From the NCBI GenBank assembly GCA_000004985.1, contig GG738863.1: a stretch of 64,000 bases of DNA; one strand, written 5' to 3'. Made by a program: the position numbers and the translations under genes. This document shows, piece after piece, positions 4,439 to 34,933 of this stretch. This DNA is from Naegleria gruberi (lineage: Eukaryota). Each line of letters begins with the position of its first letter. The stretch's first letter is position 1. The notes below the pieces were generated by a model. That model saw only the letters and a list, made by a program, of their open reading frames with translations. It made no database searches and had not been told where the DNA came from.

Positions 4439-4628
4439 GATTACAACAACTATTGTATACTTGAATAGTACTATTATATATTGATAAATATTAAACTGAT
4501 ATTTTATTTATTATTTATTACCATTAAACCTCTTTTGTAAAGACGACTCGTCAGTGAACCGTTTAGAATAGAAACTAGTTGAGGAAATAAACTGTCACCC
4601 ATCACAATCCAGATCAAACATAAAAAAA

Positions 4629-29507: not shown

Positions 29508-30915
29508 ATGCCATCAACAACCACTTCATCATCAAAAGCAAGTTCCTCCACTTCATCAAACACTTCATCAAATACTTCGGGAAAGAAGATTTCACCTGCT
29601 TCTTCATCGTCATCTGGGACAACAAGAGAGAAAACTGCTTCATCAAGAAAGGGAGAATCAACAAGTACTGATTTTTCTACCCTTATAAAAACCAATCCAA
29701 AACTTTCTGCCAAACCAATTACCAATAAGGATGGAGATGATATAACAGAATATTTTGATGAAACTAATGTTTTGAATGCCAAGATTGAACATTTAGTCAA
29801 TCTCATAAATCAATCCAAACATATTGTATTATATACAGGTGCTGGTATCAGTAGAGCAGCAGGTATTAGAGATTACAGATCTCCTAATGGTATGTTTACA
29901 ATAATTCTTTTCATGGAAATTAATTAAATTTCTGATAGGTGTTTGGACTATGAAAGAAAAGGGAGTAAAAACTGTAGCAAAGAAGGATGAATCAAAGATA
30001 ATCTTCCCAACTCGTACTCACATGGCTATTTCTACATTATACAATGCTGGAAAGATTCAATATGTAACTTCTCAAAATGTTGACGGATTGCATGTTAAAT
30101 CAGGAATTCCAAGAAAGAATATGAGTGAATTGCATGGTAATACCAATGTTGAGATTTGTCACAAATGTAACATAGAATATGTCCGTAATTTTAGATGTAG
30201 AAATAACAAGAATGTTCACGACCACAGGACTGGAAGATTCTGTGAAAAGTGTAAAAGTGAATTGGAAGATACAATTATTAATTTCAATGAAAATTTACCA
30301 ACTGATCAATTGGAAAGAGCAGAGGAGAATGCTTCCAAGGCTGACCTGGCTATTGTCGTAGGAACAAGTATGAGAGTTAATCCTGCATGTTCCCTTCCAC
30401 AGATGTGTAAAGAAAATGGAGGAAAATTAGTCATTATCAATCTCCAATTAACTCCAAAAGACAAGAAGGCAGATTTGAGAATTTTTGCAGAAGCTGACAA
30501 GGTTATTGATACGGTAATGAAAAAGCTGGCTTTGGAAATACCTCCATTCATTCTAGAAACTGAATATTCATTAGAAAGCTTTGAAAGTGTCAATCCAACA
30601 AGTGAGAAAAAGTTAATTGGATTCAAAATTACTAGTCCATCTCCTTTAGGACCAATGGGTTCAAAGGTATTGAGATCAATCAGCCTAAAGGTTCACGGCT
30701 CAAAAGTAGTGAGCTTTAAGGATACTATGATGCTCGATCCAATTCCATCCGATTGTACAAAGATATCAGCAGTACTGAAGTATAATCTGAATTCAATTGA
30801 TGAGAAGGAAGCCAAATGCACTATTGAACTGGAAAATCCACTGAACATTACTTCGAAATCCTTTGCTTTAAAGGTGAACACATCAACCAATGAAATTACA
30901 GTTACAGAAAAGTAA
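29508..30915 (+). CDS. sirtuin (Sir2 family, class IV SIRT6/7-like NAD-dependent deacylase/ADP-ribosyltransferase), 2 exons
   Basis: join(29508..29889,29939..30915). A 49-nt intron (GTATGT...GATAG) splits ...YTGAGISRAAGIRDYRSPNG|VWT.... Conserved GAGIS, QNVDGLH, HG and a Zn-binding CHKC...CEKC module are present. N-terminal S-rich extension. Confidence 0.8.
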
Positions 30916-31128
30916 ATAAAATTCGCCACTCTTAATCACTTCAATAAGTGTCATTTAAAAAATTGTAAAATTCACTCAGCAGCGTAATGTCAAGCACGGA
31001 GGAACAGAGCTATGCGCCACCCGACTCTGCGACATGCCGCAATTAATTTCCATTCAAATTTGATGCGAAACACTCGAGTTTGGTCAAAAAAATTCAACTA
31101 AAAAAACAAACAGTAAACACATTGAAAA

Positions 31129-32985
31129 ATGATTTGGGTGTGGTTGTTAACAGCATGCATTGGATACCTTTCATTTGTTGCTCTGAAAATTTATTTAAAT
31201 TACAGAAAGGTGGCACACATTCCTGGACATTGGCAAATTGTTTCGCTTTTTTGGAGAGTGCCAATTATTTCTCCCTATTTACACATGAATAATCAACGTT
31301 CAGTGACTGAGTTGATGGAAAAGTATGGTGATAAGGAGAGTGGTATTACTAGAATGTCACTAATGGATAGAAATATGGTCATTATTAATGATAAGGATCT
31401 GTTAAAGGAAGTTATCATTACAAAGGGATCAATCTTTACAAAATTCACAGAAGTTTATGAAGTTTTCAAAGTGTTTGGAGAGAATATCTTGACAGTTTTG
31501 GATGCTTCTTCAGATTCATGGAAAAATCATCACAAGATATGTTCGCCTGCATTCACAACTCAGAATTTGCAATATTTGTGTGAATATGCTGCCAAGTCTG
31601 TAGAAAAATTATTCGAATCTAGATGGGAGAAACAAAAGGGAGATCATACTCTCAAGAATGGAGAAAATTATCAAGATGCTTATTTGACAAGTGACATTAA
31701 GGGTGATTTCAGTGATGTCACATTGGATATATTGGGTCAAGTTGGTTTCGGTTTGGATTTTGAAATTTTCAAGGAAAAAACAGGAACTTTATCCGAAGGT
31801 CAACAATTCAGAAAGAGTTTGGAAGTTTTATTCACTACAGGAATCTTTGTAAAATTATTTATTGGAATGAGTAAGGTGTGGAAGTTTTTATATCCATTTG
31901 CTCAAAAATTATTCAAGGTTGATGTTGCTTATAACATTGTCAGTTCTAAATTGGACGAAATCCTCAAGGAAAGAACCAAAGAAATTGAATTAGCTTATGC
32001 CAACTCTGGAGAAATTCAAACTGGAGAAAGAAGAGACTTGTTGAGTTGTCTCATTGAGGCCAACTATGTTCAAAAGGGAGTTTTGACTGAGGATGAAGTT
32101 AAATCAGATGCATTCATCTTTTCGCTTGCTGGGTTTGTATTCAAATTTTAAAACTATTTTTCCTAATTTTATTGAAATAGACATGAGGTGAGTTTTTGCA
32201 AATTTACAATTTTTTGTAATGATGAATTTTTTATTTGAAATTTTAGACAACTTGTAAGTTTCGATTAATATTTGATTTTTGTTAACATGAGTGATAGCTA
32301 CTACATTACAGGTAAGTTTTCAATGAAAATTCAAGAAAATTCGAATAATATTAAGTGGACTTGTTACGAACTTGGTAAAAGACCTGAAATACTCAAGAAA
32401 GCTCAAGAAGAAGTTGATCGCATACTTGAGAATGGATCAAGAATTGCAACCTATGATGATTTCCCTAAAATGAACTATCTCAACATGATCATTATGGAAA
32501 GTCTCAGAGTTCATCCTCCTGTCAGTGCTGCCTATAGAGTTGCCAAAAAGGCAACCACCATTGGAAAGTATCACATTCCAAAAGATACAATTATTCAAAT
32601 GGAATTTGCTAACACTCATTGGAATGAAAAATTCTGGGAACAAGCCAATGAATATAATCCAGAACGATTCCCAACTGATTTTGAGGATAGACAAAAGATT
32701 CACAGCGATTTCACATGGGTTCCATTCTCAATGGGAAATAGAAAATGTGTAAGTATGACAGTTTTAGTTTATAATAATGATTTGCCTTAATAGATTGGCT
32801 ATAAATTTGCTCAATATGAAGCCTTTGCCATCATGTCACGACTTTTACAATTATACGATATTAAATTGGTCAATGATGAGAGACTTCCTGAAGATCAAGT
32901 GACTGAAGAAAAGGGTCCAACTGTCGGCCCAGGAAATTTACATTTGATTTTCAAGAGAAGATCATCTGTGAATGCATCTCAATAA
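31129..32985 (+). CDS. microsomal cytochrome P450 monooxygenase, multi-exon
   Basis: Proposed join(31129..32132,32181..32187,32247..32253,32312..32748,32794..32985). N-terminal TM anchor, ExxR (ESLRVHPP), PERF-like (NPERFP) and heme loop FSMGNRKC|IGYKFAQ, the latter split by a 45-nt GTAAGT...AATAG intron. The I-helix AGHETT motif appears to be assembled from two 7-nt micro-exons (uncertain). Confidence 0.75.
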
Positions 32986-33048
32986 TTTGAAAATAAACAA
33001 CTTTTCATTGTTCATTGTTCGTTGTAATAATTTAACAAAGAAAAAAAA

Positions 33049-34295
33049 ATGGAACAACACAAAACCAGTTCCATCACCAGTAATAATAATAATTTTTCAA
33101 ATGCTGATCACGAGCACGAACATTCGGAAGTAACAAAAGAAAATCAATTATCAATTTTCGACCAAGTATTGAATGATGATATTTTCCGAATTGTTCTTTC
33201 GTTTTTAAATGTTTCAGAATTGATGATTCTGGCAATTGTTTCTAAAAAATTGAGAATTGGTCAGCTCTCATCAGAAGACTATTTATGGAAGGAATATTAT
33301 GTGAATAGAGTGAAGGTACTCAATGATAATTTCAAAAATCAGTACAGATATCAATTATTGAGGAAAGTCGATAACACCAATTTATTTGAAAAGTATTTAC
33401 GTTTTGATTGTGATTTTAAGAAACATTTAATTGAACTGGGAGCTGAAATGGCATTGAAATCTGAGCAAGATTATAAAAAGAGAACAGAATATATTGAAAA
33501 ATTAAAACAGCTTGAGTATGGGAGAGTGGGCTTTCATACACGAGAGGAAATTCTTGCATGTGATTTGAAAATCAAATATTTACAACCTCAGTACAAAATC
33601 ATTCAAATTGGTAAGTTTTGTTTTTGAAATATTCAACTCAATTTGGATTTAAAGGTGATCAAGCTGTGGGAAAGACCAGTATTTACATGCGAATGCAGAA
33701 TTATGAGATGCCAACAGAGTATACACCAACTGTTTTTGACAATTTTAGTGACACCTATAAATACATAGATAGAAACACAATTAATCTGCACTATTGGGAT
33801 ACTGCTATTCATGAAGGTAAGTTTTCTAATTCAATACATATATTAGAAGTAATTGCAAGATGTGGATCAGTAAGTTGTTTTCTTTGTAACAATATTGACA
33901 CCAATCAAAAAAGATTCAGGATTTTTAGAATTTTCCCTGGTGTAGAGTTATTTCTTTTGAGTTTCAGTTGTGGATCTGATTCTAGTATGGAAAGTTTGAT
34001 ATCAAAGTGGTTTCCTGAATGTATTAAATATTGCCCAAATATTATTCTGGTTTGCACCAAAACTGATTTGAGAAATGAAAAAACCTTTTGTAAGAGATTA
34101 ACTGAGAAATTTCAAAGAAAGCCAATTGGATTCGAACAAGGAGAGCTACTTGCAAGAAAAATGGGATGTATTACCTATTTGGAAACCAGCTCTTTTAACA
34201 ATGAAGGTATCAAAGATTTGACTGAAATTATTGCCAAATCTATTGTGATAGCTTCAAATTCAACTCTGAAACAAAAGAAATGCATGCTGCAATAG
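33049..34295 (+). CDS. F-box-like N-terminal domain fused to an atypical (predicted GTPase-deficient) Rho-family GTPase with C-terminal CaaX (CMLQ)
   Basis: join(33049..33610,33655..33816[,33847..34295 or read-through]). A 44-nt GTAAGT intron joins ...KIIQIG|DQAVGKTS (P-loop, with G12-equivalent Gln). Switch II reads WDTAIHE (His at the catalytic Gln61 position). Also ILVCTKTDLR, IGFEQGELLARKMGCITYLETS, CMLQ end. N-terminus has the F-box-like IFDQVLNDDIFRIVLSFLNVSEL. Confidence 0.6.
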
Positions 34296-34330
34296 TTCAC
34301 TTTCAATAATAACTCATGGAAGTGAAAAAT

Positions 34331-34933
34331 TTACTTTATTTTAGAGACCAACCATTCAATACTCTCAGTAATATTAAACTCATTAATTATACTGGTCATG
34401 AAAACTTCGAGAGGACGTTGAGGATTCGACTCGTTAACACCCTTAGTAGGACCAGTTCTCAAATGAGAAACTCCCATTGTACAACAGAGTTCAAATTCAG
34501 ACATGGCTTGAGGATTATCAACCTTATTACCCAGAATTACTACTGGAACATTGGCCAAGTCTGGATCATTTAAAATCTTGGCCAATTCCTTAGCAGCAAC
34601 CTGAGATCTCTTTCTATCCATTGAATCGACAATGAAAACAATACCATTCACATCAATGCAATATTGTTTCCAAAGCTGACGTGCCAGATCATGTCCTCCC
34701 ATATCTATGGCTTCCACAGAACATGTCGATGAAATTTCAATGGATTCCTTATTGGGAGTAGTTGTACTTTGATAGGCACCAATAAGATTACTCTTCAATT
34801 TGTGCAATAGTGTTGTCTTTCCAGCATTGTCTAATCCTAGAAATATAATCTTTCCCTTCACTGATGACATTAATCCCAATAATTTCAGCAAGTCAGAGCA
34901 ATAATTTAAAATCCAACTGAAAAATGAAGACAT
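34331..34933 (-). CDS. sar1: SAR1 small GTPase (COPII vesicle coat)
   Basis: Intronless 200-aa ORF, ATG confirmed. GLDNAGKTTLLH, DMGGH (DxxG), ILGNKVD (NKxD) and the RPLEVFM C-terminal region are all SAR1-typical. Confidence 0.85.
   Translation of the reverse strand: MSSFFSWILNYCSDLLKLLGLMSSVKGKIIFLGLDNAGKTTLLHKLKSNLIGAYQSTTTPNKESIEISSTCSVEAIDMGGHDLARQLWKQYCIDVNGIVFIVDSMDRKRSQVAAKELAKILNDPDLANVPVVILGNKVDNPQAMSEFELCCTMGVSHLRTGPTKGVNESNPQRPLEVFMTSIINEFNITESIEWLVSKIK

What the first reader, a model, noticed from the sequence alone, without database searches (positions are those of the whole stretch)
32133..32311. P450 I-helix motif AGHETT apparently built from two consecutive 7-nt micro-exons
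Exon 1 ends ...FIFSLAG (phase 2). Within the next 180 nt, ACATGAG (32181-87) and ACAACTT (32247-53) are each bounded by an AG acceptor and a GTGAGT/GTAAGT donor. Splicing them gives A-G-H-E-T-T-C followed in frame by KFSMKIQENSNNIKWTCYELGKRPEIL. This recreates the canonical oxygen-binding I-helix signature. Two tandem 7-nt exons would be exceptional, so the alternative is a decayed region or another splice pattern.
Basis: inference. Interest (0 to 1): 0.5.

Follow-up and report, generated by a model that had tools for sequence, protein, structure and literature searches.

The report
Three tandem micro-exons in Naegleria P450
A cytochrome P450 gene of the amoeba Naegleria gruberi encodes its catalytic I-helix motif on three consecutive tiny exons (7, 7 and 14 bases) separated by four very short introns. 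The sequence evidence supports this structure, which is unusual but not unprecedented, and it is already in the public gene annotation.

Summary
The window is Naegleria gruberi NEG-M, not a dictyostelid. The correct splice is exon 1 | ACATGAG | ACAACTT | CTACTACATTACAG | exon 5, giving AGHETTSTTLQWTCYELGKRPEIL.

- This aligns without gaps to every Naegleria and Willaertia homolog and to solved P450s.
- It is the best of 4,817 in-frame GT-AG paths.
- It cannot be matched by shuffled sequence.
- It is identical to the deposited protein XP_002678059.1/EFC45315.1 from residue 53 on.

The gene is not decayed: pN/pS is 0.18 against a 98.6%-identical metagenome relative, whose differences concentrate in the proposed introns. 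Three of the four intron positions recur in other heterolobosean P450 genes. Willaertia has a 14-nt micro-exon equal to micro-exons 1+2. Several Naegleria paralogs have the AGHE|TT intron.

No transcript data could be examined. The likely mechanism is constitutive, intron-defined, probably ordered splicing. Verdict: real on sequence and comparative evidence, unusual in an intron-poor genome, but already annotated and of a known kind.

The parts
31129..32132 (+). P450 exon 1 (1004 nt). Runs from the ATG to ...FIFSLAG and ends in phase 2 (GG of the Gly codon).
   Evidence: ORF and translation. Residues 1-52 align to homolog N-termini. The public model starts only at M53 (31285).
32133..32180 (+). 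Intron 1, 48 nt, GTTTGT...AAATAG, 17% GC. Position 'a' (Gly codon, phase 2).
   Evidence: Willaertia magna P0007 has an intron at the same position and phase.
32181..32187 (+). Micro-exon 1, 7 nt, ACATGAG. Completes Gly and encodes His-Glu.
   Evidence: Unchanged in L001.
32188..32246 (+). Intron 2, 59 nt, GTGAGT...TTTTAG. Position 'b' (after Glu of AGHE, phase 0).
   Evidence: The same position is used in the N. fowleri L002 gene and in N. lovaniensis P0009 and P0010. Seven aligned differences, including an indel, against L001.
32247..32253 (+). Micro-exon 2, 7 nt, ACAACTT. Encodes Thr-Thr and the first base of Ser.
   Evidence: Unchanged in L001.
32254..32297 (+). Intron 3, 44 nt, GTAAGT...TGATAG. 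Position 'c' (Ser codon, phase 1).
   Evidence: W. magna P0007 has the same position and phase. N. lovaniensis P0012 and N. fowleri P0013 have an intron 1 nt away (phase 2).
32298..32311 (+). Micro-exon 3, 14 nt, CTACTACATTACAG. Completes Ser and encodes Thr-Thr-Leu-Gln.
   Evidence: Required to reproduce the deposited protein.
32312..32355 (+). Intron 4, 44 nt, GTAAGT...ATTAAG. Position 'd' (after Gln, phase 0).
   Evidence: Not seen in any other homolog examined. One substitution against L001.
32356..32748 (+). Exon 5 (393 nt). Runs from WTCYELGKRPEIL to FSMGNRKC and contains ExxR (ESLR), PERF and most of the heme-binding loop.
32749..32793 (+). Intron 5, 45 nt, GTAAGT...TAATAG, phase 0 between Cys and Ile of NRKC|IGY.
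32794..32985 (+). Exon 6 (192 nt including the TAA stop).

Best explanation
This is an intact, selected cytochrome P450 gene of Naegleria gruberi (NAEGRDRAFT_66581) with six exons.

Structure:
- The I-helix oxygen-activation motif AGHETTSTTLQ is encoded across exon 1 and three consecutive micro-exons of 7, 7 and 14 nt.
- Four AT-rich introns of 48, 59, 44 and 44 nt separate them. All are GT-AG, and three have GTRAGT donors.

Mechanism (inferred):
- All four introns are removed constitutively by intron-definition splicing, the default for such short introns.
- A 7-nt exon cannot hold an upstream 3'-splice-site complex and a downstream U1 snRNP at once. The introns are therefore probably removed one after another, each step lengthening the neighbouring exon.
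- The lengths 7, 7 and 14 are not multiples of three, so skipping any single micro-exon shifts the frame. The only in-frame skip (micro-exons 2+3, 21 nt) deletes the catalytic Thr. Full inclusion is therefore required for an active enzyme.

Origin (inferred):
- The intron cluster is mostly inherited from an older, intron-denser heterolobosean P450 gene.
- Other lineages lost different subsets of these introns, and some copies lost all of them.
For: Shown by tool results:
- The window is N. gruberi NEG-M.
- The three-micro-exon CDS gives a 538-aa protein with Pfam p450 at 265.7 bits, E=1e-78.
- It aligns without gaps through AGHETTSTTLQWTCYEL to CYP97A3 and CYP97C1 structures and to 12 Naegleria and Willaertia homologs.
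- It is the only stop-free 28-nt path, at 10/10 identity against at most 4/10 in 1000 shuffles.
- It ranks first of 4,817 in-frame paths against a family HMM built without N. gruberi.
- Residues 53-538 are identical to the deposited EFC45315.1/XP_002678059.1.
- Against contig L001, differences run at 12/240 in introns and 12/1617 in exons (Fisher p=1e-5), with none in the micro-exons. pN/pS is 0.18.
- Intron positions a and c recur in W. magna P0007, which has a 14-nt micro-exon.
- Position b recurs in N. fowleri L002 and in N. lovaniensis P0009 and P0010.
- N. lovaniensis P0012 has another 7-nt micro-exon.
- Other candidate introns in the window are 41-73 nt long.

From the literature:
- Intron definition is the default for short introns, and micro-exons are sterically unfit for exon definition (PMC8378409).
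- Adjacent 5+12-nt micro-exons have been validated in rice (PMC8831610).
Against: - No transcript evidence (EST or RNA-seq junctions) could be examined here.
- I do not know what evidence the JGI model rests on. It may be homology-guided, so its agreement is not independent experimental proof.
- The intron 1 donor is GTTTGT, off the GTRAGT consensus, although it is identical in L001.
- Acceptors are short (TAG or AAG) and lack obvious polypyrimidine tracts.
- The zero differences in 28 nt of micro-exon are not significant on their own.
- Ordered splicing and the ancestral origin of the introns are inferences. Parallel intron gain at the same sites is not excluded, and the deeper tree nodes are weak (31% bootstrap).
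Confidence: 0.88

Rival explanations
1. One reading: only two micro-exons. Micro-exon 2 joins the acceptor at 32311, and 32312-32355 is coding. The result is AGHETT followed by CKFSMKIQENSNNIKW, a 548-aa protein.
For: It is in frame and free of stops. It still scores as a P450 (241.2 bits; rank 18 of 4,817). It could exist as a minor isoform.
Against: - It scores 24.5 bits lower on Pfam and 26.5 bits lower on the family HMM.
- It inserts 10 residues into the I-helix right after the catalytic Thr, where none of 12 homologs or the solved structures has a gap.
- It ignores the perfect CAG|GTAAGT donor at 32312.
- It disagrees with the deposited protein.
Confidence: 0.04
2. The region is a decayed stretch of a pseudogene, and the apparent motif is a remnant.
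For: The region is AT-rich (17-25% GC). It breaks the ORF for prokaryote-style gene callers (P0001, P0051).
Against: - The spliced ORF is complete, with all P450 signature motifs.
- pN/pS is 0.18 against L001.
- Every boundary is canonical GT-AG and is kept in L001.
- The motif is rebuilt at 10/10 by the only available path.
- Homologous intron positions occur in other species.
Confidence: 0.02
3. Origin rival: the four introns are not ancestral. They were gained independently and recurrently at a hot spot, the highly conserved GCN GGN CAY GAR ACN ACN sequence, in different heterolobosean lineages.
For: - Of 11 distinct intron positions in the family, 5 fall within 28 nt of the I-helix motif and 3 within 15 nt of the heme motif.
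- Position c and its variant c' differ by 1 nt between clades.
- Position d is unique to N. gruberi.
- Deep tree nodes are poorly supported.
Against: - Exact position and phase are shared across genera and across deep paralog clades.
- The N. fowleri/N. lovaniensis ortholog pair P0014/P0003 differs by having two introns against none. This is the classic signature of complete intron loss.
- The introns show no similarity to each other or to other window sequence, so there is no sign of an introner-type element.
Confidence: 0.3
4. The micro-exon cluster acts as a regulatory device. Inefficient or conditional removal of one of the four introns gives frame-shifted, NMD-targeted transcripts, so splicing gates P450 expression.
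For: Any single failure shifts the frame (7, 7 and 14 nt; arithmetic). The intron 1 donor is weak (GTTTGT). Plant micro-exons tend to have detained flanking introns (PMC8831610).
Against: There is no expression data. Paralogs lacking these introns encode the same motif, so the introns are dispensable for the protein. Nothing beyond the splice signals is visibly conserved in the introns.
Confidence: 0.1

Closest known systems
Deposited gene model NAEGRDRAFT_66581 (EFC45315.1 / XP_002678059.1, 'predicted protein', N. gruberi NEG-M)
   Same: Identical protein from residue 53 to the end, including AGHETTSTTLQW, so it uses the same 7+7+14-nt micro-exon splice pattern.
   Different: The deposited model starts at an internal Met (window 31285). 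It lacks 52 N-terminal residues (membrane anchor and the KV.HIPG.WQ region) that align to homologs. It is named only 'predicted protein'. I found no paper that comments on its exon structure.
Conserved constitutive coding micro-exons of land plants (<=15 nt; Yu et al. 2022, PMC8831610)
   Same: They are very small coding exons of any phase, flanked by GT-AG introns with strong GTRAGT donors. They lie in conserved protein motifs, are often missed by annotation, and are lost in some lineages when flanking introns are lost. Two adjacent micro-exons (5+12 nt) were validated by RT-PCR in a rice peptidase M1 gene.
   Different: This case has three in a row, in a protist with only 1.7 exons per gene (PMC8296547). 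Its flanking introns are 44-59 nt rather than typical plant introns.
Willaertia magna P450 (ABK040_002401, P0007), 14-nt micro-exon
   Same: It belongs to the same P450 family (45% identity). Its introns sit at the same positions and phases as window introns 1 and 3. Its micro-exon ACACGAAACAACAA corresponds to window micro-exons 1+2.
   Different: It lacks the AGHE|TT intron and the intron after Gln, so it has one 14-nt micro-exon instead of 7+7+14.
Schistosoma micro-exon genes (MEGs)
   Same: They contain runs of many consecutive very short exons (3-81 bp) within one gene (abstract of 10.1101/2023.06.21.545858).
   Different: MEG exons are symmetric, are flanked by long introns (up to 5 kb), and encode variable secreted proteins through exon skipping. 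Here the exons are asymmetric (7, 7 and 14 nt), the introns are tiny, and the product is a conserved enzyme motif that tolerates no skipping.
Animal neuronal micro-exons (SRRM4- and PRP-40-dependent)
   Same: The exons are too short for exon definition, so recognition must go through the flanking introns (PMC8378409).
   Different: Those exons are mostly multiples of 3, alternatively spliced, tissue-regulated, and flanked by long introns that need auxiliary factors. Here short introns should allow default intron definition (inference).

Membership tests
Cytochrome P450 (PF00067) | Profile match above the curated threshold over the full domain | tested here: met
   265.7 bits against a cut-off of 22.8, E=1e-78, profile positions 12-443 of 462. 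Best solved relatives are CYP97A3, CYP97C1, CYP3A4 and CYP46A1.
Cytochrome P450 (PF00067) | I-helix (A/G)Gx(D/E)T(T/S) oxygen-activation motif | tested here: met
   AGHETT is present only after splicing exon 1 to micro-exons 1 and 2. It aligns to AGHETS and AGHETT of CYP97A3 and CYP97C1.
Cytochrome P450 (PF00067) | Heme-binding loop FxxGxRxCxG with the cysteine ligand, K-helix ExxR, and PERF | tested here: met
   FSMGNRKCIG (split by intron 5 after Cys), ESLR and NPERF are all present in the translation and aligned.
Cytochrome P450 (PF00067) | Monooxygenase activity and heme binding | not testable with these tools
   No biochemical data. The substrate is unknown.
Coding micro-exon (<=15 nt by the plant definition; <=27-30 nt by the animal definition) | Internal exon of that size bounded by canonical acceptor and donor, needed to keep frame and homology | tested here: met
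   7, 7 and 14 nt. Each has an AG acceptor and a GTGAGT or GTAAGT donor. Together they form the only path restoring the motif.
Coding micro-exon (<=15 nt by the plant definition; <=27-30 nt by the animal definition) | Junctions seen in transcripts | not testable with these tools
   No RNA-seq or EST access. No transcript-derived protein fragment appeared in the protein search or in the cluster.
Coding micro-exon (<=15 nt by the plant definition; <=27-30 nt by the animal definition) | Evolutionary conservation of the micro-exon and its flanking intron positions | tested here: met
   Identical in L001. Positions a, b and c are shared with Willaertia and other Naegleria genes. Position d is not shared.
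Introner-like or transposon-derived introns | Introns similar in sequence to each other or to many other copies in the genome | tested here: not met
   Pairwise local alignments do not exceed shuffles (best uncorrected p about 0.01 among 10 pairs). There are no other matches in the 64-kb window. The rest of the genome was not available.
Schistosoma-type micro-exon gene (MEG) | Symmetric exons (multiples of 3) that allow combinatorial skipping, with a secreted variable product | tested here: not met
   7, 7 and 14 nt are not multiples of 3. The product is a conserved enzyme core.

The most novel reading that the evidence does not exclude
The tandem 7-nt exons may be ancient. A heterolobosean ancestral P450 would already have carried three or four introns within the 28 nt encoding HETTSTTLQ, plus more within the heme-binding loop. 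N. gruberi would then have kept this extreme structure since before the Naegleria-Willaertia split, while sister genes lost the introns piecemeal or all at once. If so, introns lying inside the most constrained codons are preferentially retained (or repeatedly gained) in an otherwise intron-poor genome. This gene would be the longest known run of constitutive, frame-shifting micro-exons in a protist. It would be a natural substrate for testing obligatory ordered splicing under intron definition.
Probability: 0.45. Interest if true: 0.45.

Novelty: already known. Interest (0 to 1): 0.3.

Why it matters
- **Annotation lesson.** The catalytic motif of an enzyme can disappear from naive translations because it is spread over 7-nt exons. 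Prokaryote-style callers cut this gene into fragments (P0001, P0051, P0049), and the N. fowleri paralog was truncated at the same place (P0014).
- **Splicing.** Three consecutive exons too short for exon definition, separated by 44-59-nt introns, make a compact natural test of intron-defined, possibly ordered splicing.
- **Intron evolution.** Intron positions cluster in the two most conserved P450 motifs and are shared across heterolobosean genera, in a lineage with only about 0.7 introns per gene. This bears on differential intron retention against hot-spot gain.

None of this changes a major view, and the gene model itself has been public since the 2010 genome.

Tried and rejected
The deposited model surfaced only by listing the members of the P0001 cluster. 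That explains why the homology search showed no N. gruberi entry.
- **Fetching the annotated N. gruberi locus** through a neighbouring protein failed: nothing was on record.
- **Two metagenome scans** for closer relatives gave no help. The single protein found nothing. The family alignment found only P450s of 30% identity or less, which I did not examine further.
- **Introner or repeat origin of the introns:** no similarity among them or elsewhere in the window.
- **Skipping the whole 223 nt as one intron:** out of frame.
- **Another P450 copy in the window:** none.
- **Rfam and tRNA scans of 29-35 kb:** nothing.
- **Literature searches** for Naegleria micro-exons or P450 gene structure found no relevant paper.

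Full report
**Observation.** Window 30500-33800 was read directly.
- On the + strand an ORF starts at ATG 31129 and runs to ...GCT GG at 32132 (FIFSLAG, phase 2).
- ACATGAG occupies 32181-32187, after AATAG and before GTGAGT.
- ACAACTT occupies 32247-32253, after TTTAG and before GTAAGT.

**A third micro-exon.**
- The 14 nt before it (CTACTACATTACAG, 32298-32311) follow a TGATAG acceptor.
- A further acceptor, ATTAAG, ends at 32355, directly before TGG ACT TGT TAC GAA.
- Using these sites gives exon 1 | 7 nt | 7 nt | 14 nt | exon 5, with introns of 48, 59, 44 and 44 nt.
- With a fifth, 45-nt intron at 32749-32793, the product is a 538-aa protein reading ...FIFSLAGHETTSTTLQWTCYELGKRPEIL....
- Treating the whole 223 nt as one intron is out of frame.

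**Which model is right.**
- Against solved structures, the segment slAGHETTsttLqWTcYeL aligns without gaps to CYP97A3 and CYP97C1.
- The closest proteins are Naegleria lovaniensis, N. fowleri and Willaertia magna P450s at 39-52% identity. All carry AGHETT[S/A]T.[L/M]QW with no insertion at this point.
- With the outer boundaries fixed, only one GT-AG path of 28 exonic nt is free of stops. It matches the consensus GHETTSTTLQ at 10/10. The best of 1000 dinucleotide shuffles reached 4/10.
- I then enumerated all in-frame, stop-free GT-AG paths with up to five introns, 4,817 in total. I scored them with a family HMM built without any N. gruberi sequence.

**Identity of the locus and prior knowledge.**
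- Four ORFs of the window are exact matches to N. gruberi NEG-M proteins such as seryl-tRNA synthetase XP_002678063.1. The organism is a heterolobosean amoeboflagellate, not a dictyostelid.
- The homology search listed no N. gruberi entry because that entry was hidden inside the 90% cluster represented by P0001.
- Listing the cluster revealed EFC45315.1 / XP_002678059.1 (NAEGRDRAFT_66581, 'predicted protein', 486 aa).
- That protein is identical to residues 53-538 of my model.
- The three-micro-exon splice pattern has therefore been in the public annotation since the genome release.
- I could not determine whether that model rests on ESTs or on homology.
- I found no paper discussing it.

**Not a pseudogene, not an artefact.** A metagenome contig (L001, ENA ERZ929261) is 98.6% identical over 3.9 kb and has the same structure.
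- Differences run at 12 per 240 nt in the five proposed introns and 12 per 1617 nt in exons (Fisher p = 1e-5). They include GTGAGT to GTGGGT and an indel in intron 2.
- None falls in the 28 nt of micro-exons. That is not significant by itself.
- In the CDS there are 7 synonymous and 5 non-synonymous changes, giving pN/pS = 0.18.
- All P450 signature motifs are present: AGHETT, ESLR, PERF and FSMGNRKCIG.

**Comparative intron map.** I rebuilt the exon structures of the annotated homologs from their genomic loci with a small exact spliced aligner and read the key regions directly.

| Position | Location and phase | Genes carrying it |
|---|---|---|
| a | Gly codon of AGHE, phase 2 | N. gruberi; W. 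magna P0007 |
| b | After Glu (AGHE\|TT), phase 0 | N. gruberi; N. fowleri L002 gene; N. lovaniensis P0009 and P0010 |
| c | Ser codon, phase 1 | N. gruberi; W. magna P0007 |
| c' | Ser codon, phase 2 (1 nt from c) | N. lovaniensis P0012; N. fowleri P0013 |
| d | After Gln, phase 0 | N. gruberi only |

- W. magna P0007 therefore has a 14-nt micro-exon (ACACGAAACAACAA, L007:1460-1473), equal to N. gruberi micro-exons 1+2 without the intron between them.
- P0002, P0003, P0005 and P0008 have no intron in this motif, and P0004 has one elsewhere.
- The N. fowleri L002 gene has two introns, at position b and at GN|R phase 2. Its N. lovaniensis ortholog P0003 has none, which is the classic picture of wholesale intron loss.
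- N. lovaniensis P0012 has a further 7-nt micro-exon (GTAACCG) inside the heme-binding loop.
- The family shows 11 distinct intron positions. Five lie within the 28 nt of the I-helix motif and three within 15 nt of the heme loop.
- By my own arithmetic, 3 of 9 foreign positions coinciding with the 5 N. gruberi positions in a roughly 1600-nt CDS has a probability of about 3e-6 under uniform placement.
- A neighbour-joining tree puts the N. gruberi gene sister to a N. lovaniensis/N. fowleri clade (75% bootstrap). Willaertia and the clade containing P0009 and P0010 lie outside it, but those deeper nodes are weak.

**Context in the genome.**
- N. gruberi has 1.7 exons per gene and a mean intron length of 203 bp (table in PMC8296547).
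- A strict scan of the window for GT[AG]AGT introns bridging ORFs of at least 60 codons found only five. They are 41-73 nt long and include intron 5 of this gene.
- The intron sizes here are therefore typical, but four introns within 223 nt is a strong local excess.
- The introns are 17-25% GC. They show no similarity to each other or to other window sequence, so nothing points to an introner-type element.

**Mechanism.**
- Shown: canonical splice signals; a unique frame- and homology-restoring path; purifying selection; conserved intron positions.
- Inferred from established splicing biology: introns of 44-59 nt are recognised by intron definition. A 7-nt exon cannot carry the upstream 3'-splice-site complex and the downstream U1 snRNP at the same time (the steric argument reviewed in PMC8378409). 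The four introns are therefore probably removed sequentially.
- Because 7, 7 and 14 are not multiples of three, every single skip shifts the frame. The only in-frame skip (micro-exons 2+3, 21 nt) removes the catalytic Thr pair. Inclusion must therefore be constitutive for an active enzyme.
- A regulatory role for inefficient splicing is possible but unsupported.

**Comparison with known cases.**
- The closest described phenomenon is the set of conserved coding micro-exons (15 nt or less) of land plants. They are often misannotated, have strong GTRAGT donors, and are lost when flanking introns are lost. A validated pair of adjacent 5+12-nt micro-exons occurs in rice (PMC8831610).
- Schistosoma MEGs also have runs of tiny exons, but those are symmetric, alternatively used and flanked by long introns.
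- Neuronal micro-exons of animals are regulated and need auxiliary factors.
- This case is a constitutive, asymmetric triple run in an intron-poor protist.

**Verdict.**
- The structure is unusual but belongs to a known kind and is already deposited, so interest is modest (0.3).
- The most novel reading still open is that tandem 7-nt exons have persisted since before the Naegleria-Willaertia split, within a hot spot of intron retention in the most constrained P450 motifs.
- Transcript junction evidence is the one missing decisive test.

Noticed in passing
window 31129-31284: The deposited model XP_002678059.1 starts at an internal Met (31285). The 52 codons upstream, from ATG 31129, encode a hydrophobic anchor and a KV.HIPG.WQ...P..SPY region that aligns to all homologs. 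The public model is therefore probably truncated at the N-terminus.
   Followed up: partly
L056:2229-2235 (N. lovaniensis PYSW02000018.1, gene C9374_003523): A second kind of 7-nt micro-exon (GTAACCG) lies inside the heme-binding loop FSGGNRKCIG, flanked by introns of 84 and 50 nt. The N. fowleri ortholog (L010) has no intron there.
   Followed up: partly
L007:1418-1523 (Willaertia magna JBEGDK010000140.1): A 14-nt micro-exon ACACGAAACAACAA encodes (G)HETT(S). It is flanked by 42- and 50-nt introns at the same positions and phases as window introns 1 and 3.
   Followed up: yes
L002:4015-4152 and about 4566-4619 (N. fowleri, Logan SRR29240419_287): This N. fowleri paralog has introns at AGHE|TT (138 nt) and at MGN|R phase 2. 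A prokaryote-style caller cut it into three ORFs (P0014 ends AGHEVSE...). Its N. lovaniensis ortholog P0003 is completely intronless.
   Followed up: partly
Family-wide: The 11 distinct intron positions in this heterolobosean P450 family are strongly clustered. Five lie within 28 nt of the I-helix motif and three within 15 nt of the heme-binding loop. GKAGF|G phase 1 and GN|R phase 2 are each shared by several paralog clades.
   Followed up: partly
L001 (ENA ERZ929261, contig k127_585116): An environmental metagenome contig is 98.6% identical to the window over 30860-34747, so it comes from a close N. gruberi relative. Its gene calls split the P450 into 340-, 167- and 50-aa fragments. This shows how micro-exon genes are mis-called in metagenomes.
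   Followed up: yes
window 30970-31050: An 80-nt block of 52% GC sits in the otherwise AT-rich intergenic region just upstream of the P450 start. It is unique in the window and conserved in L001 at about the background level. There is no Rfam or tRNA match.
   Followed up: partly
window 33029-33700: The downstream + strand gene has a 44-nt GTAAGT...AAAG intron at 33611-33654 (phase 1). In L001 the corresponding ORF carries a Ras-family (PF00071) domain.
   Followed up: no
L003:1-308 (N. lovaniensis PYSW02000013.1): A gene call with an HTH_OrfB_IS605 (PF12323) domain lies about 1.2 kb upstream of the intronless P450 P0003. This is a transposon-type protein next to the copy that lost its introns.
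   Followed up: no
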